DNA from: Patescibacteria group bacterium
GTDB taxonomy: Bacteria > Patescibacteriota > Minisyncoccia > Phycocordibacterales > 21-14-all-36-13
Length of the DNA stretch: 50,912 bases
Assembly: GCA_038065915.1 (NCBI GenBank)
Contig: JBBTPZ010000002.1
Location: 18,714-69,625, forward strand
Reading direction: 5' to 3'
Notes under the pieces: model-generated
Told to the model about the DNA's origin: nothing
Database searches by the model: none
The model's input: only the letters and a program-made list of their open reading frames with translations
Program-made: the position numbers and the translations under genes
In this document: in pieces, positions 3,824 to 49,240 of the stretch
Position numbering within the stretch: the stretch's first letter is position 1
Layout of the letters: each line of letters opens with the position of its first letter

Positions 3824-4008
3824 ACAAAAATTATATCATAAAAATAGAAACTCCCGCGGACCTTTCGGCTGGCGGGAGCGTTTATGTGATTAAATATACA
3901 CTAATATAATAAAAAAACAAGAAACTCATCAACCTTAATCTTCTGTGTCAGTTGTTTTAAGATTTTGTTTTTAAAAAGATTTATTTTTAGCCATAATTTG
4001 AGAAACAC

Positions 4009-4460: not shown

Positions 4461-5009
4461 TTATAATTCAAATTCATCCTTTAATAAATCTTCATTACTG
4501 ATTTTTTCTGTTTCAAGAAAGATTATGTGTTTTGAAACACCAAAATATTCTCCAATAAATTTGATTTCCTTTTTGCATTCATATGGGGTAATAAAAACCG
4601 ATTTCTGTATTGGAGCACATCCAATTCTTATCAATTTTAGGGTTAATCCATCTCTGGCTGTTTTATGTTTTTCTGGAATATCAAACATTATTATTCTCCA
4701 AATCCCATCCCACCCCTTTTGCTCTTTTATCTTTATTTCATCTATTTTGTATTTCAAAATCTCTTTTCTTCCATTTTCTGTTATTTCAATTACATCAATT
4801 CCTTCTTTTTTATATTTTTTAACATATTTTTTGTTTTCTAATCTATCTATTGCTCGTCTAATTTTCTCCTTTTCTTTCCATGCTTCCGCATCAAACATTT
4901 TATAGACAAGAGGTAATTGTGGAAGTGCCATAGAACCAATTACAAAAGTTGCCCCCACTATTGCTTTTAATATATCTTTAGCTAATTCTCCTCTACTGTG
5001 TTTTTTCAT
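4461..5009 (-). CDS. PaaX-family / Cas2-fold-like small protein, paralog 1 (182 aa)
   Basis: WDGIWRIIMFDIPEKHKTARDGLTLKLIRIGCAPIQKSVFITPYE matches the Cas2-like beta-alpha-beta core seen in PaaX-type proteins. Collinear paralog at 41512..42060. Confidence 0.8.
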   Translation of the reverse strand: MKKHSRGELAKDILKAIVGATFVIGSMALPQLPLVYKMFDAEAWKEKEKIRRAIDRLENKKYVKKYKKEGIDVIEITENGRKEILKYKIDEIKIKEQKGWDGIWRIIMFDIPEKHKTARDGLTLKLIRIGCAPIQKSVFITPYECKKEIKFIGEYFGVSKHIIFLETEKISNEDLLKDEFEL

Positions 5010-9480: not shown

Positions 9481-9502
9481 TTTAATTGAACATAAAAAAT
9501 AA

Positions 9503-9549
9503 TCATGGATTCAAATACTCCCTTGAAACATTTGAATTTGAATCCATGA
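9503..9549. repeat. family B hairpin lying inside the last 16 codons of the carboxypeptidase CDS
   Basis: Arms TCATGGATTCAAAT (9503-9516) and ATTTGAATCCATGA (9536-9549) encode ..MDSNSNVSREYLNP*. Confidence 0.85.
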
Positions 9550-10480
9550 CAATATCAACCAATTTTTTCATATCCTTAAACCTCCCTTCTTTGGTTGAAC
9601 CAAGAACGGAAATTATTATTGGTCGCATCATTCCATTATCAAAAGCCACTACAAGATTTCCTCCCGCCAAATCCGTATAACCGGTTTTTGAAGCTATCAC
9701 CCAAGGTATCTTATTTATAATTTCGTTAGTATTTTCTGTATTGTGAATTTTATTATCTTCAGATTTTAATTCCAATTTATTGTAGGAAGTAACCTCGAGT
9801 ATTTCTGGTTTATTTCGAACCATATAATCAAAAAGCATAGCAACATCTTGTGCTGAACCATAAGAGCCACTTAAAGATTTTTCATCAATATCTAATCCGG
9901 ACTCATTTAAAAAGTATGTCTGTTTCAGATTTAATTCTTTGGCTTTTTTATTCATTTTTTTAACAAACGACATTTCTTCCACACCGTTTTTATTTTTTGT
10001 GAACGATTGAACCGCAGAAGCAACTGCGCTTGCACCATCGTTTGACGAAGAAATAAGTGTAAAATCTATTAAATCTTTTAAATTCCATTTCTCGTTTTTT
10101 ATAAGTCCACCATTCCCATTTTTTTCATCAATATTTACTATTATATTTTTATTTTCATATTCACTAGCAATTAATGCTGTCATAATTTTTGAAAGAGATG
10201 CAAGTGGTAATTGTGCTTCTTTGTTTTGTGAAAAAATTTCTTTTTGGTTATAAACATCCCAAATAAACACGGCTTGCGCTTCAAGTCGTGCGTCTTTTAT
10301 TTTTTGAGCTATATTGTTAACAATATCTGTTTTTTGTATAGAAATTTCCGACTCGCTTTCTTTTTTTTCTGGGAAAGATATGTAAACAATTGAAAAAAAT
10401 AATAATACTATTGCAATAGAAAAAATAAATTTAATTAATCCTTCCTCTGGTTTTATTGTATTTTCTTCCATTTCGTCCAT
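9503..10480 (-). CDS. serine-type D-Ala-D-Ala carboxypeptidase (PBP5/S11-like)
   Basis: SLSK (SxxK), SSND (SxN) and KTGYT (KTG) motifs; N-terminal TM anchor. Confidence 0.9.
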   Translation of the reverse strand: MDEMEENTIKPEEGLIKFIFSIAIVLLFFSIVYISFPEKKESESEISIQKTDIVNNIAQKIKDARLEAQAVFIWDVYNQKEIFSQNKEAQLPLASLSKIMTALIASEYENKNIIVNIDEKNGNGGLIKNEKWNLKDLIDFTLISSSNDGASAVASAVQSFTKNKNGVEEMSFVKKMNKKAKELNLKQTYFLNESGLDIDEKSLSGSYGSAQDVAMLFDYMVRNKPEILEVTSYNKLELKSEDNKIHNTENTNEIINKIPWVIASKTGYTDLAGGNLVVAFDNGMMRPIIISVLGSTKEGRFKDMKKLVDIVMDSNSNVSREYLNP

Positions 10481-10575: not shown

Positions 10576-10677
10576 TGCCCCGTTAGAAATTCGGATGCTT
10601 TTAACGAACATTCTAATCCATAATTTTTTTTGTTTGATTTTTAAAGTTATTCGCCCTTAACGAACTTCTAATGGGGT
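10576..10677. repeat. long-range inverted repeat plus direct repeat TTAACGAAC(A)TTCTAAT x2
   Basis: CCCCGTTAGAAATTCG pairs with CGAACTTCTAATGGGG. The right arm abuts the scpB stop. Confidence 0.7.
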
Positions 10678-21020: not shown

Positions 21021-21027
21021 AAATATA

Positions 21028-21036
21028 ATTATATCA
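21028..21036 (-). promoter_or_regulatory. extended -10 TGaTATAAT, 7 nt before the GTG start (leaderless-type)
   Basis: ATTATATCA on the + strand at 21028-21036. Confidence 0.5.
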
Positions 21037-21076
21037 AAATAATCTCAATAAGAAAAATCAGAATATATATTAAATA

Positions 21077-21702: not shown

Positions 21703-21731
21703 AAATTCCAGCGGTTCAACCGCTGGAATTT
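21703..21731. terminator. hairpin terminator between convergent genes
   Basis: AAATTCCAGCGG-TTCAA-CCGCTGGAATTT. Confidence 0.7.
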
Positions 21732-21945
21732 ACATCTTTCCATGGCCGTATAATACTTCTAGGGCGTTATAACTGGTTGCTGTTTCTATTATTTGTCCTG
21801 CTGCTTTATGTGTTTTTTTGATACCATGCTGAAAAGATTTAGGAAGACTGTTTAATATTGGTATAAGTATAAAATCAAAAGCCTTTTTAGAAGGATTATT
21901 TGTCTCAAATTTTATATTTTTGTCTTTATATATTTCAGTAATCAT
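21730..21945 (-). CDS. hypothetical 71-aa protein
   Basis: TATAAT (21953-21958) lies 7 nt before the ATG. No family recognised. Confidence 0.4.
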   Translation of the reverse strand: MITEIYKDKNIKFETNNPSKKAFDFILIPILNSLPKSFQHGIKKTHKAAGQIIETATSYNALEVLYGHGKM

Positions 21946-21994: not shown

Positions 21995-22021
21995 AATGCC
22001 GTATCATATGATTACGGCATT
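21995..22021 (-). terminator. intrinsic terminator overlapping the stop codon of 22004..22282
   Basis: AATGCCGTAATCATATGATACGGCATT followed by a T-rich tract on the minus strand. Confidence 0.65.
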
Positions 22022-22282
22022 CTTGTTTTTCTTGTGAATTGGAAATATGCAAGAAAAAAATATTATAGAAGAAATAAAAAAACATAAAAACAACACAAAG
22101 GAAATTATAGAAATCCATAACGAAAAATCATTCTGAATAAAATCGGTAACAACTAACCTGCCAAGAACCAATTCTCCGCCTGAATTCCCTATCTCTTCGA
22201 ATGATTTAACACTTACATTTCCAAACATAAATGCCAAACCAAGTAAAACAAAAGAAAAAAGAGCCATAAATATCCTTTTCAT
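22004..22282 (-). CDS. small membrane protein (signal/TM plus C-terminal TM)
   Basis: Hydrophobic N- and C-terminal spans. GAGAGG SD. Driven by copy 1 of the triplicated promoter. Confidence 0.55.
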   Translation of the reverse strand: MKRIFMALFSFVLLGLAFMFGNVSVKSFEEIGNSGGELVLGRLVVTDFIQNDFSLWISIISFVLFLCFFISSIIFFSCIFPIHKKNKNAVII

Positions 22283-22322
22283 TTAAAACCTCTCTGATTT
22301 ATTAAACAACTTTTCGATTGAA

Positions 22323-22351
22323 ACAATACCACAAAACTTATTTAAAGTAAA
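22323..22351 (-). promoter_or_regulatory. triplicated promoter, copy 1: TTTACT-N17-(TGg)TATTGT
   Basis: AGTAAA at 22346-22351 and ACAATA at 22323-22328 on the + strand. Same 29-mer class as 23109-23137 and 23964-23992. Confidence 0.6.
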
Positions 22352-22371
22352 TATAAAACCACACAACAAAA

Positions 22372-22399
22372 TTGACAGAGTTTCAAATGGGTATATTAT
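22372..22399 (+). promoter_or_regulatory. promoter TTGACA-N16-TATTAT
   Basis: -35 at 22372-22377, -10 at 22394-22399. Confidence 0.55.
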
Positions 22400-22445
22400 A
22401 GAATTAAGTGGGTTGATTTAAAATTATATTATTAAAAATAAAAAC

Positions 22446-22817
22446 ATGACTAAATTAAATAATAAAATAGGTGTAATTAATAAAATTTTAAAATCTGGTT
22501 CTGAACAAAGTTTTCTAAATATCATAAATAAAAAAAGATTGGGGAAATATGAAAATTTTTTAATATCAAAACTTAGTGTTAATCCTGTCCCCATTGAAGA
22601 AATTTTCAAATTTGGGATTGAAAATTTACCTACAGATGAACTTCGTCCGAATCTTTCCTTGAGCTCTTATTTTTTTGTAATAACAGAAATTAAAGAATTG
22701 CCAGAAGAGTTGTATAATTTAGCAATGGAAGCCATGATTTATTGCAAAAATGATTCTGATGTTCCAACAAAATCTTTATTTGATTTAAATAAAATATATA
22801 AAAAAGCTCTCTGTTAA
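22446..22817 (+). CDS. hypothetical 123-aa protein
   Basis: Own promoter and terminator. No family recognised. Confidence 0.5.
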   Translation: MTKLNNKIGVINKILKSGSEQSFLNIINKKRLGKYENFLISKLSVNPVPIEEIFKFGIENLPTDELRPNLSLSSYFFVITEIKELPEELYNLAMEAMIYCKNDSDVPTKSLFDLNKIYKKALC

Positions 22818-22830
22818 AATACAGAGAGCT
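22805..22830. terminator. hairpin terminator between convergent genes
   Basis: AGCTCTCTGT-TAAAA-TACAGAGAGCT. Confidence 0.65.
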
Positions 22831-22847
22831 ATATTTGGTCCAAAAAA

Positions 22848-23060
22848 TTATTTTTTGGAAATACCATGAAACCCATGAGCTGTTTTTGAGCCATCACTAT
22901 TTTCCCGTATCATTATGTGAGAATGATTGTCTCTATCTCCTTCCCTTGTGTTATCCTTTGTACGGATATGGTGAGTATCTTTACTTCCATTAGAATTTTT
23001 TTCTGTTTTGGAGTTTGTTTCTCCACCAGAAGAATCGTTGAACCAATCTAACCAACCCAC
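22848..23060 (-). CDS. His/Asp/Asn/Ser/Lys-rich 70-aa hydrophilic protein, paralog 1 (GTG start)
   Basis: AGGAGG SD 5 nt before the GTG. MGW N-terminus and ..AHGFHGIS motif shared with 23676..23915. Confidence 0.6.
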   Translation of the reverse strand: MGWLDWFNDSSGGETNSKTEKNSNGSKDTHHIRTKDNTREGDRDNHSHIMIRENSDGSKTAHGFHGISKK

Positions 23061-23108
23061 TTCAACCTCCTATATTTTATTTTTTTAAAAAAGAGCTATT
23101 TGTTTTTC

Positions 23109-23137
23109 AGAATACCACAAAACTTGTTTAAAGTAAA
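23109..23137 (-). promoter_or_regulatory. triplicated promoter, copy 2: TTTACT-N17-(TGg)TATTCT
   Basis: Part of the 87-bp block 23051-23137, which is near-identical to 23906-23992. Confidence 0.6.
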
Positions 23138-23155
23138 TAGAAAATATTACTTTAT

Positions 23156-23623
23156 TTATTTGCAAGAGTATATTTCTTCAAATAAATTAAAAATTAAATC
23201 ATATTTATTTATTTCTATATTTATTTCATTTTTTTTCAACATTTCAACATAATCTTTATTTTTACCAAAAGCAATACATAATTTAATTAGTGTGCTCTCG
23301 TCTAGTTTGATCAACGAAAGAAATATTTTTTTACCTTCACTGTAATTTATTAAATTTGAATATTTTTTTTCAATAATTTTTTTTGTTTTTTCTAATAACA
23401 ATTTTTGGTCCTTTGCATCTGAATATTCAAAAGTTAAAACTAATCCTATTTCTTTTATTGAAGTTTGGTTTCTCCAATTTTTGTCTGTAAATTTAATCTT
23501 AAATTTATCAAGTAAATACAAAATGTCCTTTCTTTCTAAAACTCCCCTACTCAAAATAATTTCAAGCCATAAGTTATCAAAATTACTAACTTTTATTTCT
23601 CTTTTTTTATTTATTATTTTCAT
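23156..23623 (-). CDS. hypothetical 155-aa protein
   Basis: TTGTCC-N17-TATAAT (23631-23659) ends 7 nt before the ATG. No family recognised. Confidence 0.55.
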   Translation of the reverse strand: MKIINKKREIKVSNFDNLWLEIILSRGVLERKDILYLLDKFKIKFTDKNWRNQTSIKEIGLVLTFEYSDAKDQKLLLEKTKKIIEKKYSNLINYSEGKKIFLSLIKLDESTLIKLCIAFGKNKDYVEMLKKNEINIEINKYDLIFNLFEEIYSCK

Positions 23624-23630
23624 TGCTTAA

Positions 23631-23659
23631 ATTATAGAATAATAAAGAGAAACGGACAA
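23631..23659 (-). promoter_or_regulatory. leaderless-type promoter TTGTCC-N17-TATAAT-N7-ATG
   Basis: ATTATA at 23631-23636 and GGACAA at 23654-23659 on the + strand. Confidence 0.5.
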
Positions 23660-23678
23660 TTGTCCGTTTCTGTCTTTA
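23645..23678 (-). terminator. hairpin after the His-rich gene 23676..23915
   Basis: AGAAACGGACA-AT-TGTCCGTTTCT palindrome. Confidence 0.6.
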
Positions 23679-23915
23679 TTTAACATGATCCTTTTGGTCC
23701 CCATTTTCATTTACAGAAATATGACCAAAATTAGCGTTTTTTTCACTAATCTTTTCATTGTTTTTGTAAGTTACTTTTGCAGCATATATATCATGTCCGC
23801 TTGAACCATCTTTGTGTTTGTGATTTTCACTTTTGCGACCTTCTATTTTGACTTTATATTCAGTTTCATCGTTAGAGTTATTATCACTTCCAAAGAGATC
23901 ACTAAACCAACCCAC
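23676..23915 (-). CDS. His/Asp/Asn/Ser/Lys-rich 79-aa hydrophilic protein, paralog 2 (GTG start)
   Basis: Same SD, GTG and MGW start as paralog 1. NFGHIS motif. Confidence 0.6.
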   Translation of the reverse strand: MGWFSDLFGSDNNSNDETEYKVKIEGRKSENHKHKDGSSGHDIYAAKVTYKNNEKISEKNANFGHISVNENGDQKDHVK

Positions 23916-23963
23916 TTCAACCTCCTATATTTTATTTTTTTAAAAAAGAGCTATTTGTTTTTC

Positions 23964-23992
23964 AGAATACCACAAAATTTATTTAAAGTAAA
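23964..23992 (-). promoter_or_regulatory. triplicated promoter, copy 3: TTTACT-N17-(TGg)TATTCT
   Basis: AGAATA at 23964-23969 and AGTAAA at 23987-23992 on the + strand. Confidence 0.6.
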
Positions 23993-24083
23993 CAAAAGAT
24001 TAAACCACTTTCTAATTCGCGCGAATTAGAAAGTGGTTTCTGCCTAGTAATTTAGTGATTTTATGTTTTTAAAAATACAAAAT

Positions 24084-24120
24084 ATTATGGATTCAAATGC
24101 TTTGAATGAGCATTTGAATT
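24084..24120. repeat. family B hairpin
   Basis: ATTATGGATTCAAATGC-TTTGAATGA-GCATTTGAATT, followed by the GTGATTTG x3 microrepeat at 24121-24146. Confidence 0.85.
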
Positions 24121-24955: not shown

Positions 24956-25330
24956 TTAAATTTTTACTTTTAAGTATTCTTTTATTCTTTCTTTATCTTC
25001 TATTTCTTTTTCACCTTTGAAATAAATTCCAATAAAATCTACTATTTCAGTTTCTATATGAAAAGCATATATAATCCTTATGCCACTTTTTATACCGCGT
25101 CCTTTTAGTGACTTACAGGCAAATTTTTTGAGTTTGCAGATTATTATTTTTTCAGAACAAAAATTAGGAATTGGAAATATCGCTTGCTTATTTATTTTTT
25201 GTAAATGAAATAATTCAATAGCAAAAGTTTTTGCTGTTTCAATATCTTCATTAAGGGAGGAAAATTTTTTTAGAAGTTCTTTAAGATCCTTTTGAAATTC
25301 TTTTGTATTTTTATAATTAATCTTCGCCAT
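24956..25330 (-). CDS. RelE/HigB (Gp49-like) superfamily toxin candidate
   Basis: GIKSGIRIIYAFHIETEIVDFIGIYFKGEKEIEDKERI resembles the RelE/HigB C-terminal core. 14-nt overlap with the upstream antitoxin gene. Confidence 0.65.
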   Translation of the reverse strand: MAKINYKNTKEFQKDLKELLKKFSSLNEDIETAKTFAIELFHLQKINKQAIFPIPNFCSEKIIICKLKKFACKSLKGRGIKSGIRIIYAFHIETEIVDFIGIYFKGEKEIEDKERIKEYLKVKI

Positions 25331-26096
25331 AGATTCTCACCGATGTTTCTGGAGTCCTATAAAATACTGACTCATAGCTTATAATTTTACCATCTTCCGT
25401 CCCTACCCATGGCACATCTTTGTGAGAATAGTCACTTAATTCCATTGCAGATTTATCAGAAAGTCTAAAAAGAACATCATCAATATGTTTTATTTCTTGA
25501 GCATTTAAAATAGAAATATTAGATTGTCTACGAGGTAAATATTTCGTTTGTTCATGTAAAAAGTATTTACTTTTTACTGTTTCTAATTCCCCTTTTGATT
25601 CTAAACTTTCAACGATTTTTTTAAATTCCACGGGGGTTGGGCCAAAATGATTTTTTATATATGTTGCCCCAAGTAATTGTTCTTCAAATTTTTCGTAATA
25701 ATCAAAATCAATAAAATAAAGGAGTTTATATAAAACCGTCATTCCAACATTTGGTTTACTGCCAACTTTTTCTAATATATACAATAATACTTCTTTAAAT
25801 TTTTTAAGATTTTTTTGTGGTATATCAATACGAATTTCTTGCACTTCCTTTCTTTTTTTTTCTTTCTTAAAAAAAATTTTTATTTCAGAATTTTTTTTAC
25901 CAGCAATTAGTGCTTCAAGAGAAAGATTAAAAATTTCAGCAATTTTTTGAGCCTGTGAAAGAGTTAGTTCTTTTGTTCCCTTCTCAATTTCAATATAACT
26001 AGCTCGAGAAACACATATCTTTTGAGCCATAAAGGCCTGAGAAAGATTATTGATTTTTCTCAATTCTAATAGAAATGTATGTTTAATCATATTCAT
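25317..26096 (-). CDS. XRE-family HTH fused to a DUF4065 (Panacea/SocA-like) antitoxin domain
   Basis: HTH: LSQAFMAQKICVSRASYIEIEKGTKELTLSQAQKIAEIF. DUF4065-like: VLYKLLYFIDFDYYEKFEEQLLGATYIKNHFGPTPVEF. The start is ATG 26096 or 26090; the ORF-track start at 26162 is a TTG. Confidence 0.8.
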   Translation of the reverse strand: MNMIKHTFLLELRKINNLSQAFMAQKICVSRASYIEIEKGTKELTLSQAQKIAEIFNLSLEALIAGKKNSEIKIFFKKEKKRKEVQEIRIDIPQKNLKKFKEVLLYILEKVGSKPNVGMTVLYKLLYFIDFDYYEKFEEQLLGATYIKNHFGPTPVEFKKIVESLESKGELETVKSKYFLHEQTKYLPRRQSNISILNAQEIKHIDDVLFRLSDKSAMELSDYSHKDVPWVGTEDGKIISYESVFYRTPETSVRIYGED

Positions 26097-26098
26097 AT

Positions 26099-26126
26099 AG
26101 TATAGTCGTAAAAAATCATATGTCAA
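26099..26126 (-). promoter_or_regulatory. leaderless-type promoter TTGACA-N16-TATACT
   Basis: TGTCAA at 26121-26126 and AGTATA at 26099-26104 on the + strand. ATGs lie 2 and 8 nt downstream. Confidence 0.55.
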
Positions 26127-26206
26127 TATTTTAGACAAACCAAATGTGGATAAACTTGACAAGCAAAAATTGAAAATAAAACAATCGTCATTTTTCTTGT
26201 TTTTTT

Positions 26207-27442: not shown

Positions 27443-27482
27443 ATTATGGATTCAAACGCTCATTAAGAGCGTTTGAATTATG
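27443..27482. repeat. family B hairpin
   Basis: ATTATGGATTCAAACGCTC-ATTAA-GAGCGTTTGAATTATG. Confidence 0.85.
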
Positions 27483-30158: not shown

Positions 30159-30310
30159 GGAGCATAACACAAAAAAAATAATTATGGATTCAAATGCTCC
30201 CATGGAGCATAACACAAAAAAAATAATTATGGATTCAAATGCTCCCATGGAGCATAACACAAAAAAAATAATTATGGATTCAAATGCTCCCATGGAGCAT
30301 TTGAATTATG
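30159..30310. repeat. tandem repeat, 45-bp unit x3 plus a terminal complete family B hairpin
   Basis: Units GGAGCATAACACAAAAAAAATAATTATGGATTCAAATGCTCCCAT at 30159, 30204 and 30249. No spacers. Confidence 0.9.
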
Positions 30311-31549: not shown

Positions 31550-31645
31550 ATTATGGATTTAAATGCTCAGAATAGGATTAAAATCTGACACGGTTCTTTA
31601 AAATCTCATTTAGAGATTTTAAAGTTAGAGCATTTAAATTTAATG
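31550..31645. repeat. family B variant with a nested inner hairpin
   Basis: ATTATGGATTTAAATGCTC..GAGCATTTAAATTTAATG enclosing TTAAAATCTC-ATTTA-GAGATTTTAA. Confidence 0.75.
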
Positions 31646-41421: not shown

Positions 41422-41463
41422 AATTTTATTTTAACATATTTTCCATAAACTTTTGTAAAAACA

Positions 41464-41511: not shown

Positions 41512-42060
41512 TTACAACTCAAACTCATCTTTTAAAGAATCTTCATTACTAATTTTATTTGTTTCAAGGAAAATTATATGTTTTGCAATATCGAAGTATT
41601 CTCCAATAAATTTAATCTCCTTTTCGCATTCGTATGGACTAACAAAAACCGATTTTTGTATTGGAGCACAACCCATTTTTATCAATTTTAAGGTTAATCC
41701 ATCACGAGCCGTTTTCTTTTTTTCAGGAATATCAAACATTATTATTCTCCAGATGCCATCCCATCTTTTTTGTTCTTTTATTTTTATTTCGTCTAATTTA
41801 TATTTTAAAACTTCTTTTCTTCCATTTTCAGTTATTTCAACGACATCAATCCCTCCTTTTTTATATTTCTTTACATATTTTTTATTTTGTAATCTATCCA
41901 TTGCTTTTCTTACTCTTTCCTTTTCTCTTTTGTCTTCCGCATCAAACATTTTATAAATCATGGGTAGTTGTGGTAATGCAAGAGAAGAAACAAGAAATGC
42001 TGTTCCAACAAGTCCTTTTAAAATATTTTTCATTATTTCTCCATTTCTATATTTCTTCAT
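41512..42060 (-). CDS. PaaX-family / Cas2-fold-like small protein, paralog 2 (182 aa)
   Basis: Gap-free alignment with 4461..5009. By eye about 40 differences in 182 positions. Confidence 0.8.
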   Translation of the reverse strand: MKKYRNGEIMKNILKGLVGTAFLVSSLALPQLPMIYKMFDAEDKREKERVRKAMDRLQNKKYVKKYKKGGIDVVEITENGRKEVLKYKLDEIKIKEQKRWDGIWRIIMFDIPEKKKTARDGLTLKLIKMGCAPIQKSVFVSPYECEKEIKFIGEYFDIAKHIIFLETNKISNEDSLKDEFEL

Positions 42061-44573: not shown

Positions 44574-44996
44574 ATGAGCAGAAAAACTTCTATATTCGTG
44601 ATGACCATTATTGTTGTTCTCTTTATTGCAATAATAGTAAATGATAATTATACAAAAAAAAGGTCAAACAAAGAAAATATTCCAGGGTCTACAAAAAAAT
44701 CTGAAATGGTTGCACATTACGGAAAATCAGCAGAAGTAGAACTTCTGAAAATTGATGATAACAACTGGCAATTAGTTAACTACAATGGTTACTTTGTAAC
44801 CATTCGTCGTGTGACAATCTCATTGGCGTATGGTGCAGGAGAAACAACGGTGTCAGTTCAAAGAATTGGAGCAAAAGGAAGTATCAACTTTAAAAACCTT
44901 AATCATTCAGACGGTTTTTATATTTACGATAGTTATGGAGCTCTTTCTGGTTGGTTGAGAGCCGACGAGATTCATTATCTTACGGAACCTCTCTAG
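44574..44996 (+). CDS. hypothetical membrane-anchored/secreted 140-aa protein
   Basis: AGGAGG SD, N-terminal TM span, own promoter and terminator. Confidence 0.6.
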   Translation: MSRKTSIFVMTIIVVLFIAIIVNDNYTKKRSNKENIPGSTKKSEMVAHYGKSAEVELLKIDDNNWQLVNYNGYFVTIRRVTISLAYGAGETTVSVQRIGAKGSINFKNLNHSDGFYIYDSYGALSGWLRADEIHYLTEPL

Positions 44997-47251: not shown

Positions 47252-47530
47252 TTAGAATCTATTTCTGAAAACTAATTTTTCTTTCTTCGTCCAGCTCATA
47301 ACTACAACTGTAGAAATTGTTGAGCCGAAAAAAATCATCAGGCCAGAAATAAAGAGCCAAAAAATTGGGATTGAAATAACAATTAAACCTACAAAAGAAA
47401 GTATGATTATGACCAGTAAACAAAAACTAGAAAAAAATTCCTTTTCTCTCATGTGTGGTTCAAAGCCGAGAGAAATACCAAAGAAAACACAAATTATTAT
47501 AAAAGTAATTGGTGATATTAAATCGTTCAT
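47252..47530 (-). CDS. small 3-TM membrane protein (92 aa)
   Basis: AGGAGA SD 7 nt before the ATG; own terminator. Confidence 0.6.
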   Translation of the reverse strand: MNDLISPITFIIICVFFGISLGFEPHMREKEFFSSFCLLVIIILSFVGLIVISIPIFWLFISGLMIFFGSTISTVVVMSWTKKEKLVFRNRF

Positions 47531-49203: not shown

Positions 49204-49240
49204 ATTATGGATTCAAAAGCTCATTCATCGCTTTTGAATT
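49204..49240. repeat. family B hairpin overlapping the trmD 3' end
   Basis: ATTATGGATTCAAAAGC-TCATTCATC-GCTTTTGAATT encodes ..SKAMNELLNP*. Confidence 0.85.

What the first reader, a model, noticed from the sequence alone, without database searches (positions are those of the whole stretch)
22004..23992. Triplicated promoter driving a small membrane protein and two diverged His-rich hydrophilic paralogs
The 29-bp promoter TTTACT-N17-TGgTATT(G/C)T occurs three times. Blocks 23051-23137 and 23906-23992 (87 bp) span the promoter, 5' UTR, AGGAGG, GTG and the MGW codons, and differ at only 2 positions. The coding regions behind them have diverged strongly (70 vs 79 aa). Both are rich in His, Asp, Asn, Ser and Lys, lack a hydrophobic core, and share an (F/H)GHIS-like motif. 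Conserved control regions with divergent products suggest gene conversion or strong regulatory constraint on a co-regulated stress, metal or effector module.
Basis: partly seen in the sequence, partly recalled or inferred. Interest (0 to 1): 0.65.

Follow-up and report, generated by a model that had tools for sequence, protein, structure and literature searches.

The report
Shared promoter-leader cassette on small genes
In an uncultured groundwater bacterium (Patescibacteria), several tiny genes carry copies of one promoter-and-leader cassette that gene conversion keeps alike; two of them encode conserved, histidine-rich small proteins of unknown function that are not demonstrably related to each other.

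Summary
The 29-bp TTTACT-N14-TGGTATT(C/G)T occurs three times on the minus strand (0 expected by chance). The two 87-bp blocks differ at exactly 2 positions, and identity collapses on both sides. Each copy heads its own unit of promoter, leader, short gene and terminator.

Both small ORFs are genuine genes (dN/dS 0.05-0.28). They are not demonstrable paralogs: profile comparison aligns only the first 10 residues. Each belongs to its own rare, unannotated family with distant members and its own conserved neighbour gene (79 aa with 155 aa; 70 aa with 123 aa). His residues are 4-6 times enriched and among the invariant positions.

Comparison of strains shows mosaic leaders, which is direct evidence of short-tract gene conversion between the loci. 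A sister strain has a fourth cassette copy in front of a 39-aa acidic peptide. The nearest species lacks the 79/155/70/123 block but keeps the promoter on the membrane gene.

The cassette carries a perfect AGGAGG in a window where only 4 of 53 genes have a Shine-Dalgarno site.

No RNA structure, operator, known fold or known family was found. Biochemical function is still inferred only. Interest is moderate. The closest architectural analogue is the Borrelia erp "upstream homology box" genes.

The parts
24002..24039 (-). Intrinsic terminator of the upstream acyltransferase gene; it marks the upstream edge of the small-gene region
   Evidence: 17-pair hairpin followed by a T-run. Conserved in L019, where the small genes are absent.
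23964..23992 (-). Promoter copy P3: TTTACT-N14-TGG-TATTCT (-35-like hexamer, 17-nt spacing, extended -10)
23916..23963 (-). 48-nt A/U-rich leader of the 79-aa gene, with the box AAACAAATAGCTCTTTTTTAAAAAAATAAAAT and a perfect AGGAGGT Shine-Dalgarno site
   Evidence: Identical to the 70-aa leader. The box is conserved in other genomes and other genes. There is no significant RNA fold.
23676..23915 (-). 79-aa gene (GTG start; begins MGWFSDLFG). Member of a rare family with the core V.IEGR....H.H.DG(T/S).G.D.YAAKV....EKNA..GH
   Evidence: dN/dS 0.08-0.28. Family members P0001-3 and P0007-12. AlphaFold2 predicts three long beta strands.
23648..23671 (-). Intrinsic terminator after the 79-aa gene, overlapping a TTGTCC-17-TATAAT promoter-like site for the next gene
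   Evidence: Conserved in L001, L003 and L006.
23156..23623 (-). 155-aa gene, the conserved neighbour of the 79-aa family. TATAAT lies 8 nt before its ATG and there is no Shine-Dalgarno site, so the mRNA is leaderless-like
   Evidence: It follows the 79-aa gene in L001, L003, L006-8, L015 and L017, and a 34%-identical homolog follows the distant member P0012 in L113. No family match.
23109..23137 (-). Promoter copy P2: TTTACT-N14-TGG-TATTCT
23061..23108 (-). Leader of the 70-aa gene. It was recently converted from the 79-aa leader
   Evidence: In alignment A6, the window's 70-aa locus matches its ortholog L015_70 up to the -10, then is identical to the 79-aa leader where L015_70 differs at 5 substitutions and 2 indels.
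22848..23060 (-). 70-aa gene (GTG start; begins MGWLDWFNDSSGG). Five His are invariant across the family
   Evidence: dN/dS 0.05-0.14. A 74%-identical ortholog lies in a genome of different GC content with synonymous sites saturated. AlphaFold2 predicts a short N-terminal helix plus four strands, pLDDT 68.
22805..22830 (.). Bidirectional terminator shared by the convergent 70-aa and 123-aa genes
22446..22817 (+). 123-aa gene, the conserved convergent neighbour of the 70-aa family, with its own TTGACA-16-TATTAT promoter-like site at 22372-22399
   Evidence: It has the same convergent position in L001, L014 and L015, and a 37%-identical homolog sits in that position in the distant L010-12.
22323..22351 (-). 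Promoter copy P1: TTTACT-N14-TGG-TATTGT
   Evidence: The orthologous promoter in L019, L001 and L015 keeps the -35 and TGGTATT, but in L019 and L001 has a different spacer.
22283..22322 (-). Leader of the membrane-protein gene (GAAAAGTTGTTTAATAAAT box, weak GAGAGG Shine-Dalgarno site). It is a more diverged relative of the same leader
   Evidence: Alignment.
22004..22282 (-). Small membrane protein of 92 aa (87 aa from the second Met), with hydrophobic N- and C-terminal segments
   Evidence: GRAVY +1.13. Orthologs occur in L015 and L019. Only 50/87 and 55/91 residues are identical to these.
21995..22021 (-). Hairpin AATGCCGTA-N9-TACGGCATT followed by TTATTTTGTT. Probable terminator of the membrane gene, overlapping its stop codon
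   Evidence: Read directly from the sequence. The scan did not list it because the loop exceeds 8 nt.

Best explanation
This region is a small set of independently transcribed, probably co-expressed small-protein genes in a Paceibacteria-type Patescibacteria genome.

Each gene has the same start module. The module consists of a sigma-70-type promoter with an extended -10 (TTTACT, 17-nt spacing, TGn-TATTNT), a leader of about 48 nt rich in A and U with a conserved AAACAG(C/T)TCTTTTTT..AAAATAAAAT box, and a perfect AGGAGGT ribosome-binding site. That site is exceptional in this nearly Shine-Dalgarno-free genome. Each gene ends in its own terminator.

Short-tract gene conversion between the loci keeps the copies of the module alike within a genome. 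As a result, unrelated products share one expression programme. The products are a two-segment membrane protein, the 79-aa beta-protein, the 70-aa protein and, in a sister strain, a 39-aa acidic peptide.

The 70-aa and 79-aa proteins are two separate, old, slowly evolving families, not recent paralogs. Each travels with its own partner gene (123 aa and 155 aa) in a variable, island-like spot downstream of the dnaK-dnaJ and acyltransferase genes.

Inferred, not shown: (1) the module gives high, coordinated expression; (2) the invariant His/Asp/Glu residues bind a metal ion; (3) the shared N-terminal W-x-x-D-x-(F/L)-(G/N)-D mini-motif is a common docking or membrane-contact peptide.
For: The three promoter copies are far beyond chance.

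Each unit has its own terminator (and direct reading).

In 1.49 Mb of related loci, TTTACT-N14-TGGTA occurs essentially only in front of these genes: the 79-aa, 70-aa, membrane and 39-aa acidic peptide genes.

Gene conversion is shown by the mosaic alignment A6. The window's 70-aa leader equals the window's 79-aa leader where the ortholog L015_70 differs, and L017's 79-aa gene carries the flank and leader of the 70-locus type.

Spacers are alike within a genome and differ between genomes. The window and L015 have TTAAATAAGTTTTG; L001, L003 and L019 have TTTT(A/G)(C/T)(A/G)TACT(C/T)TG.

The leader diverges by about 10% between the window and L003, while 56% of synonymous sites differ.

The genes are coding: dN/dS is 0.05-0.28.

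The families are separate (hhalign), with distant members and conserved partner genes.

Only 4 of 53 genes in the window have GGAGG or AGGAG upstream, and two of those are these genes.

L019, the nearest species in the genome collection, lacks the 79/155/70/123 block but keeps the promoter and the membrane gene.

His is enriched 4-6 fold, and His positions are invariant in both families.
Against: No expression data exist, so promoter activity, the transcription start and co-expression are all inferred from consensus matches.

The -35 and -10 hexamers each match the sigma-70 consensus at only 4 of 6 positions.

Within-genome uniformity of the spacer could also reflect a regulator that co-evolves with its sites.

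The conserved leader box may be a binding site that I could not identify.

Metal binding and a role for the N-terminal motif are untested. Three distant members of the 79-aa family lack the motif.

The AlphaFold2 models are of moderate confidence (pLDDT 75 and 68) and match no known fold.
Confidence: 0.6

Rival explanations
1. The 70-aa and 79-aa genes are tandem duplicates of one ancestral gene, whose coding regions diverged fast while the control region stayed constrained.
For: They share the leader, the start context and MGW. Both have an N-terminal hydrophobic mini-motif followed by a polar linker and a His-containing predicted beta region. They have similar FHGIS/FGHIS strings near the C-terminus.
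Against: hhalign aligns only residues 1-10, with probability 5.8%. Both bodies evolve slowly (dN/dS 0.05-0.28). Each has distant orthologs that keep its own motifs. The partner genes differ and are not homologous. The identity of the leaders is recent and secondary, because the ortholog L015_70 has a different leader.
Confidence: 0.2
2. The conserved sequences are binding sites. A transcription factor or RNA-binding protein recognises the spacer and/or the +8 to +35 leader box (GYTCTTTTTT-AAAAA, a T-run/A-run palindrome) and switches the set of genes on or off. On this view selection, rather than conversion, keeps the copies alike. This does not exclude the best explanation.
For: The leader box is conserved across genomes and across four different genes, and is far less diverged than synonymous sites. 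A T5-6A5-6 palindrome is present in all variants. The cassette is restricted to a handful of genes.
Against: The spacer is not conserved between genomes. No regulator gene lies next to the genes, and no sigma factor or obvious regulator of these genes is in the window. The mosaic patterns require conversion in any case. A/U-rich leaders can also act simply as translation enhancers (established knowledge about ribosomal protein S1, not tested here).
Confidence: 0.3
3. The real units are two accessory or mobile two-gene modules: a small His-rich protein plus a partner of 120-175 aa, for example a toxin-antitoxin-like, effector-immunity or defence pair. The shared promoter is incidental.
For: Both pairings are conserved in distant genomes. 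The block is absent from the nearest species, L019. In L010 the 70-aa-type pair sits in a 52-54% GC island beside tRNA-Cys and tRNA-Leu in a 38-40% GC genome, next to ImmA/IrrE-like and HTH genes.
Against: The partners are not co-transcribed with the small genes: one pair is separated by a terminator and the other is convergent. There are no hits in PADLOC, Pfam, NCBIfam or PHROGs. No relatives were found in phage, plasmid or viral-contig collections. Low dN/dS is not typical of arms-race genes.
Confidence: 0.2
4. The promoter is read by an alternative, general-stress-type sigma factor (sigma-B-like GTTTAA-N12-15-GGGTAT), which would make this a stress regulon of small hydrophilic proteins.
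For: (G/A)TTTAC-N15-TGGTAT resembles the Bacillus sigma-B consensus as I recall it. This is a lead from memory, not a test. Small, hydrophilic, monocistronic genes are typical of such regulons. The promoter differs from the TGnTAnAAT sites that lie close to the start codons of other genes in the window.
Against: The G before TTTAC is not conserved. The element fits an extended -10 sigma-70 promoter equally well. No sigma or anti-sigma gene is in the window. Reduced Patescibacteria genomes usually encode few sigma factors (general knowledge, not tested here).
Confidence: 0.08
5. The soluble products are exported peptides whose MGW..GG N-terminus is a short double-glycine-type leader.
For: GG occurs at residues 12-13 of the 70-aa family, and in an MGWISDVLGG peptide in L095. 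Three product families share the N-terminal motif.
Against: The 79-aa family has no GG. The putative leader is 9-13 residues, shorter than known double-glycine leaders. No C39-peptidase ABC transporter or modification enzyme is found among the window's genes. The products are hydrophilic and predicted to fold.
Confidence: 0.05
6. The leader is an RNA switch, for example a fourU-like thermometer, in which CUCUU pairs with AGGAG to mask the ribosome-binding site.
For: RNAalifold finds this pairing in all 7 leader variants. The genes lie near the dnaK operon.
Against: The consensus energy is only -1.39 kcal/mol and there is no covariation. Single-sequence folds are not better than shuffles, with z from -1.2 to +0.9. 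There is no Rfam match. The membrane-gene leader lacks the CUCUU box.
Confidence: 0.05

Closest known systems
Borrelia burgdorferi erp (OspE/F-related, 'upstream homology box') genes
   Same: One promoter, operator, leader and N-terminal coding module sits in front of diverse coding bodies. The module spreads and is homogenised by recombination, and the genes are co-expressed. [quoted passage not shown]
   Different: The erp products are surface lipoproteins with a Sec/lipobox leader, and the genes sit on cp32 prophage plasmids. Their operator proteins (BpaB, BpuR, EbfC) are known. Here the genes are chromosomal and there is no signal peptide on the soluble products, no prophage and no known regulator. 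Only 3-4 copies are seen in the DNA examined (one 51-kb window and short contigs of sister strains).
Extended -10 (TGn) sigma-70 promoters
   Same: A TG lies one base upstream of the -10 hexamer, the spacing to a -35-like hexamer is 17 nt, and the context is AT-rich.
   Different: Both hexamers match the consensus at only 4 of 6 positions, and activity is untested. Other genes in the window have TGnTAnAAT close to the start codon and no leader.
Small hydrophilic general-stress proteins ('hydrophilins', e.g. sigma-B or sigma-S dependent CsbD, GsiB and YciG-type proteins)
   Same: Small, very hydrophilic products (GRAVY about -1.5) from monocistronic genes with their own promoter and terminator, probably abundant.
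   Different: There is no sequence relationship. These proteins are predicted to be beta-structured rather than disordered or helical. Stress induction is unknown.
G5 domains (single-layer three-stranded beta sheets; Aap/SasG, RpfB)
   Same: They are the best, though non-significant, Foldseek matches to the 79-aa model. Both are elongated three-stranded beta-meanders.
   Different: E-values are 0.7-2 and TM-scores at most 0.47, with no sequence similarity, so this is not evidence of homology.
Concerted evolution of duplicated bacterial sequences by gene conversion (e.g. tufA/tufB, rRNA operons)
   Same: Copies are more alike within a genome than between genomes, with mosaic tracts.
   Different: In those examples the converted tract is a coding or RNA gene. 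Here it is a regulatory module of 30-90 bp attached to unrelated coding bodies.

Membership tests
Sigma-70 promoter with extended -10 | A -35-like hexamer, 16-18 nt spacing, a -10 hexamer with A at position 2 and T at position 6, and TG one base upstream | tested here: met
   TTTACT (4/6), 17 nt spacing, TG-G-TATT(C/G)T (4/6) at all three sites and in their orthologs.
Sigma-70 promoter with extended -10 | Transcription actually starts downstream of the -10 | not testable with these tools
   No transcriptome or 5'-end data are available.
Paralogous protein family (70 aa versus 79 aa) | Significant sequence or profile similarity over the protein body | tested here: not met
   BLASTP aligns only 17 N-terminal residues, E 0.009. 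hhalign aligns 10 columns with probability 5.8%.
Any curated protein family (Pfam, NCBIfam, PHROGs, PADLOC, PDB sequences) | A match at or near the family threshold | tested here: not met
   No hits for the 70-aa, 79-aa, 155-aa or 123-aa proteins.
Protein-coding gene under selection (both small ORFs) | dN/dS well below 1 among orthologs, and conservation in distant genomes | tested here: met
   dN/dS is 0.05-0.28. The 70-aa family keeps 74% identity with synonymous sites saturated. Profile hits are 39-57% identical.
Borrelia erp/UHB-type architecture | One promoter, leader and N-terminal module on otherwise unrelated coding bodies, exchanged by recombination | tested here: met
Borrelia erp/UHB-type architecture | Lipoprotein signal peptide, prophage or plasmid location, and BpaB/EbfC operators | tested here: not met
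   There is no signal peptide on the soluble products. The context is a chromosomal core region. No relatives in phage, plasmid or viral collections.
Type II toxin-antitoxin pair | Two adjacent co-transcribed genes, and a recognisable toxin or antitoxin domain | tested here: not met
   A terminator lies between the 79-aa and 155-aa genes, and the 70-aa and 123-aa genes are convergent. No domain hits.
Double-glycine leader peptides (bacteriocin or RiPP precursors) | A leader of about 15-30 residues ending in GG, and a C39-peptidase ABC exporter nearby | tested here: not met
   GG occurs only in the 70-aa family, at residues 12-13. No C39 or ABC exporter is found among the window's genes.
Known cis-regulatory RNA (riboswitch, thermometer, leader) | An Rfam match, or a stable, covarying structure | tested here: not met
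   No Rfam match. Fold z-scores range from -1.2 to +0.9. The alifold energy is -1.39 kcal/mol with no covariation.
Sigma-B-type general stress promoter | GTTTAA-N12-15-GGGTAT, and a sigma-B gene in the genome | tested here: inconclusive
   (G/A)TTTAC-N15-TGGTAT is a partial match to the consensus recalled from memory. The leading G is not conserved. Whether the genome has a sigma-B gene cannot be tested from one window.
Histidine-rich metal-binding small proteins | Conserved His/Asp/Glu ligand set, and demonstrated metal binding | tested here: inconclusive
   H32, H34 and H65 are invariant in the 79-aa family, together with E25, D42 and E58, and D36 is nearly invariant. Five His are invariant in the 70-aa family. 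Metal binding itself cannot be tested with these tools.

The most novel reading that the evidence does not exclude
A self-homogenising 'start cassette' (promoter, leader box, the genome's rare perfect Shine-Dalgarno site, and a W-x-x-D-x-Phi-(G/N)-D N-terminal tag) is copied by gene conversion onto unrelated small ORFs in a Shine-Dalgarno-poor Patescibacteria genome. This creates a private, specially translated mini-regulon. The N-terminal tag would be a new targeting or docking signal, and the cargo would include two new His-based metal-binding mini-folds, each with a dedicated partner protein.
Probability: 0.2. Interest if true: 0.65.

Novelty: new variant of a known kind. Interest (0 to 1): 0.4.

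Why it matters
Patescibacteria genomes are full of small unannotated genes, and almost nothing is known about how they control expression.

This locus gives a clean, testable case with three features. A defined promoter-leader module marks a handful of small genes. That module carries a canonical ribosome-binding site in a genome that otherwise hardly uses one. And strain comparisons show the module moving between loci by gene conversion.

The locus also defines two rare small-protein families with invariant histidines, each with a conserved partner gene. Both pairs are small enough for direct biochemical and structural work.

If the module proves to be a regulated switch, or its N-terminal tag a targeting signal, it would be a useful handle on gene regulation and small-protein biology in uncultured, reduced-genome bacteria. 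If not, it remains a tidy example of concerted evolution of regulatory DNA.

Tried and rejected
1. Rfam scan of the window: no match. tRNA scan: none.

2. Folding of six leaders, and an alifold of seven leader variants: no significant or covarying structure. The riboswitch or thermometer reading is therefore unlikely.

3. Pfam, NCBIfam, PHROGs, PADLOC and PDB-sequence searches of the 70-aa, 79-aa, 155-aa, 123-aa and 92-aa proteins: only sub-threshold noise. This includes His-tag artefacts in the PDB search.

4. Foldseek of the 79-aa model against PDB and BFVD: nothing with E below 0.1.

5. hhalign of the 70-aa family against the 79-aa family, and of the 155-aa family against the 123-aa family: no homology.

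6. Genome-collection scan with the combined small-protein alignment: no relatives among the species representatives.

7. Viral-contig scans with the promoter pattern, the leader pattern and both protein alignments, plus tblastn against plasmids and phages: nothing. A phage or plasmid origin is therefore not supported.

8. Search for a palindromic operator in the spacer: only a weak 4-bp ACTT/AAGT symmetry, read by eye, which is not conserved in other genomes.

9. The L099 context of the distant homolog P0007 is a palindromic assembly artefact and tells nothing about gene partners.

10. The leader-pattern hits L016 (an HNH-like 71-aa ORF) and L018 are chance or unrelated.


Full report
**Observation**

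On the minus strand, the 29-bp element TTTACT-N14-TGGTATT(C/G)T occurs at 22323-22351, 23109-23137 and 23964-23992. No match appeared in 100 dinucleotide-preserving shuffles. A looser pattern, TTTACT-N13-15-TGNTAT, finds only these three sites in 50.9 kb.

The blocks 23051-23137 and 23906-23992 differ at exactly 2 of 87 positions, both in the spacer. Identity falls to background right before the -35 and after the tenth coding base.

The three ORFs are as described. The composition claims also hold. His makes up 8.6% and 6.3% of the two small proteins, against 1.4% in 26 other genes of the window, and GRAVY is about -1.5.

**Anatomy**

Each copy heads a separate monocistronic unit (and direct reading):
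- The acyltransferase terminator (24002-24039) is followed by P3, a 48-nt leader, the 79-aa gene and a terminator (23648-23671).
- Next comes a 155-aa gene whose TATAAT lies 8 nt before its ATG.
- Then come P2, an identical leader, the 70-aa gene and a bidirectional terminator (22805-22830). That terminator is shared with a convergent 123-aa gene.
- Last come P1, a related but more diverged leader, and a 92-aa membrane protein. A hairpin with a T-run overlaps its stop codon.

**Organism and setting**

The window is a core chromosomal region. It holds ribosomal proteins, rpoA, aminoacyl-tRNA synthetases, ftsW/murG, scpAB and grpE-dnaK-dnaJ. GC content is 25-33%.

DnaK is 88-89% identical to MAGs labelled Candidatus Paceibacterota or Patescibacteria group. 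Nearly all close relatives of the small genes come from groundwater metagenomes, many from the Hainich site.

**Are the ORFs genes?**

Yes. Among orthologs, dN/dS is 0.08-0.28 for the 79-aa gene and 0.05-0.14 for the 70-aa gene. A 74%-identical ortholog of the 70-aa gene exists in a genome of different GC content, where synonymous sites are saturated.

A profile search of 1.84 billion representative proteins found six more members of the 79-aa family (67-83 aa, 39-57% identical). They share the invariant core V.IEGR....H.H.DG(T/S).G.D.YAAKV....EKNA..GH. One of them has an in-frame TGA, so it comes from a recoded lineage.

**Are they paralogs?**

This is not demonstrable. BLASTP and hhalign align only the first 10-17 residues.

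Each family also has its own conserved neighbour:
- The 155-aa gene follows the 79-aa gene in all close relatives. A 34%-identical homolog follows the distant member P0012.
- The 123-aa gene lies convergent to the 70-aa gene in close relatives. A 37%-identical homolog occupies the same position in L010-12.

The two partner proteins are not homologous to each other.

AlphaFold2 predicts three long beta strands after a disordered N-terminus for the 79-aa protein (pLDDT 74.7, core 82-91). For the 70-aa protein it predicts a short N-terminal helix plus four strands (pLDDT 68.3). Neither model nor either sequence matches anything known.

**The cassette and its evolution**

In 1.49 Mb of related loci, TTTACT-N14-TGGTA occurs almost only in front of four kinds of gene: the 79-aa gene, the 70-aa gene, the membrane gene and, in the sister strain L015, a 39-aa acidic peptide gene. 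The acidic peptide's gene in L015 also has a similar leader.

The -35, the TGGTATT and the leader box AAACAG(C/T)TCTTTTTT..AAAATAAAAT..AGGAGGT are conserved between genomes. Leader divergence between the window and L003 is about 10%, while 56% of synonymous sites differ.

The 14-nt spacer behaves differently. It is alike among copies within a genome but differs between genomes. The window, L015 and L017 have TTAAATAAGTTTTG. L001, L003 and L019 have TTTT(A/G)(C/T)(A/G)TACT(C/T)TG.

Alignment A6 shows the mechanism directly. The window's 70-aa locus matches its ortholog in L015 up to the -10. It is then identical to the 79-aa leader, where L015_70 differs by 5 substitutions and 2 indels. In strain L017, the 79-aa gene carries the flank and leader otherwise found at the 70-aa locus.

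**A variable spot**

L019, the nearest species in the genome collection, goes from the acyltransferase terminator almost directly to the promoter and the membrane gene. It lacks the 79/155/70/123 block. L001 has the same genes in a different order. The window has lost most of a 312-aa gene, leaving a remnant at 21730-21945.

In L010, the 70-aa-type pair lies in a 52-54% GC island next to tRNA-Cys and tRNA-Leu, in a 38-40% GC genome. The window's membrane protein is only 50/87 and 55/91 identical to its orthologs in L015 and L019.

**Translation signal**

Only 4 of 53 genes in the window have GGAGG or AGGAG upstream of the start codon. Two of the four are the 70-aa and 79-aa genes. The other two are also unannotated small membrane-type proteins.

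Many other genes have TGnTAnAAT 8-15 nt before the start codon, which looks leaderless. A long leader with a perfect Shine-Dalgarno site is therefore a special feature in this genome.

**Leader RNA and operators**

There is no Rfam match, and no fold better than shuffled sequence. The only consensus pairing, CUCUU with AGGAG, is worth -1.39 kcal/mol and shows no covariation. I found no convincing palindromic operator, and no regulator gene next to the units.

**N-terminal motif**

The soluble products begin with related short hydrophobic and acidic motifs:
- MGWFSDLFGSD in the 79-aa protein.
- MGWLDWFNDS in the 70-aa protein.
- ..NWPLDCLNDE in the acidic peptide.
- MGLFDILFGS and MGILSFLFGD in distant members of the 79-aa family.
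- MGWISDVLGG in an unrelated small peptide of a Vogelbacteria MAG.

In L010, MGW is encoded by different codons, so it is selected at the protein level. Three distant members of the 79-aa family lack the motif.

The motif recalls short amphipathic membrane-contact or docking peptides, such as the N-terminus of PspA/Vipp1. That comparison is from memory and is only a lead.

**Best explanation**

This is a small, probably co-expressed set of small-protein genes. They share one start module: an extended -10 promoter, a conserved leader box and a rare perfect Shine-Dalgarno site. Gene conversion keeps the module uniform.

The module is attached to unrelated, old, slowly evolving small proteins. 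Two of those proteins come with dedicated partner genes and sit in a variable chromosomal spot.

Shown by the analyses: the repeats, the unit structure, the coding status, the separate families, the partner conservation, the conversion mosaics and the rarity of Shine-Dalgarno sites. Inferred only: promoter activity and co-expression, metal binding by the invariant His/Asp/Glu residues, and a docking role for the N-terminal motif.

**Comparison with known systems**

The closest analogue in architecture is the Borrelia erp 'upstream homology box' family. There, one promoter, operator and leader module is joined to diverse coding bodies and is exchanged by recombination (PMC10016077). This locus differs in that the genes are chromosomal, the soluble products have no lipoprotein signal, and no regulator is known.

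The proteins belong to no described family.

I rate the finding as a new variant of a known kind, of moderate interest (0.4). It is real and tidy, and the Shine-Dalgarno exception and the conversion mosaics are nice features. It has no established function and is not a new principle.

Noticed in passing
whole window; e.g. 3824-3840, 21021-21040, 23624-23640, 41422-41440: The window is almost free of Shine-Dalgarno sites: 4 of 53 genes have GGAGG or AGGAG upstream. Even the ribosomal-protein genes and dnaK lack one. Many genes have TGnTAnAAT only 8-15 nt before the start codon, which suggests leaderless mRNAs.
   Followed up: partly
window 24084-24100, 27443-27459, 30181-30197, 30226-30242, 30271-30287, 31550-31566, 49204-49220, 9502-9550, 10608-10624: The intergenic element GCATTTGAATCCATAAT is repeated: 10 copies with up to 3 mismatches, against 0.67 expected. 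Three are tandem copies 45 nt apart upstream of grpE, and one lies just upstream of the small-gene region. The copies are often part of hairpins.
   Followed up: partly
window 24956-26162 (minus strand): An HTH_3 + SocA/Panacea-domain protein (281 aa) overlaps by 14 nt a 124-aa ORF with no family match. This is a probable Panacea-type toxin-antitoxin pair between dnaJ and the acyltransferase gene. In L003 an ABC-ATPase gene occupies this position instead.
   Followed up: no
window 21730-21945 (minus strand): This 71-aa ORF is the 5' remnant of a 312-aa gene that is intact in L019 (14491-15429) and is called as a 312-aa gene in L001 (3997-4935). The region has undergone deletion and rearrangement.
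   Followed up: partly
L015 4442-4642; L001 3815-3934; L095 3762-3872: There is a family of 36-42-aa acidic peptides (..NWPLDCLNDEP.DYDDDTATEQENSEGGDGDANEK). In L015 its gene carries a fourth copy of the promoter and a similar leader, and it is absent from the window. A Vogelbacteria MAG encodes MGWISDVLGG...ADEQGNEPGGD with a related C-terminus.
   Followed up: partly
L010 7393-11542: A 52-54% GC island lies next to tRNA-Cys and tRNA-Leu in a 38-40% GC genome. It carries an ImmA/IrrE-like M78 peptidase, an HTH protein, the 70-aa-family gene and the homolog of the 123-aa partner.
   Followed up: partly
L113 1-1612: There is a sharp GC step from 51% to 24-34% exactly at the terminator between the 79-aa-family gene (P0012) and its 174-aa partner gene. 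The same arrangement appears in independent assemblies, two of which include the full partner gene.
   Followed up: no
L100 164-415: The 79-aa-family member P0010 has an in-frame TGA at the position before IEGR. That points to an organism that reads TGA as a sense codon (genetic code 4 or 25).
   Followed up: no
window 4461-5009 and 41512-42060 (minus strand): Two 182-aa paralogs with a PaaX central (Cas2-like) domain lie 37 kb apart.
   Followed up: no
window 47252-47530 (minus strand) and 44574-44996 (plus strand): These are the only other genes with a strong Shine-Dalgarno site: a 92-aa multi-pass membrane protein, behind a perfect TTGACA-17-TATAAT promoter-like site and a long leader, and a 140-aa membrane-anchored protein. 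Neither has a family match.
   Followed up: partly
window 22004-22282 compared with L015 4070-4333 and L019 14212-14487: The window's allele of the membrane protein is unusually diverged: 50/87 identical to L015, although the surrounding DNA is 94% identical. L015 and L019 are closer to each other (69/87). This suggests allele replacement or fast evolution at this gene.
   Followed up: partly
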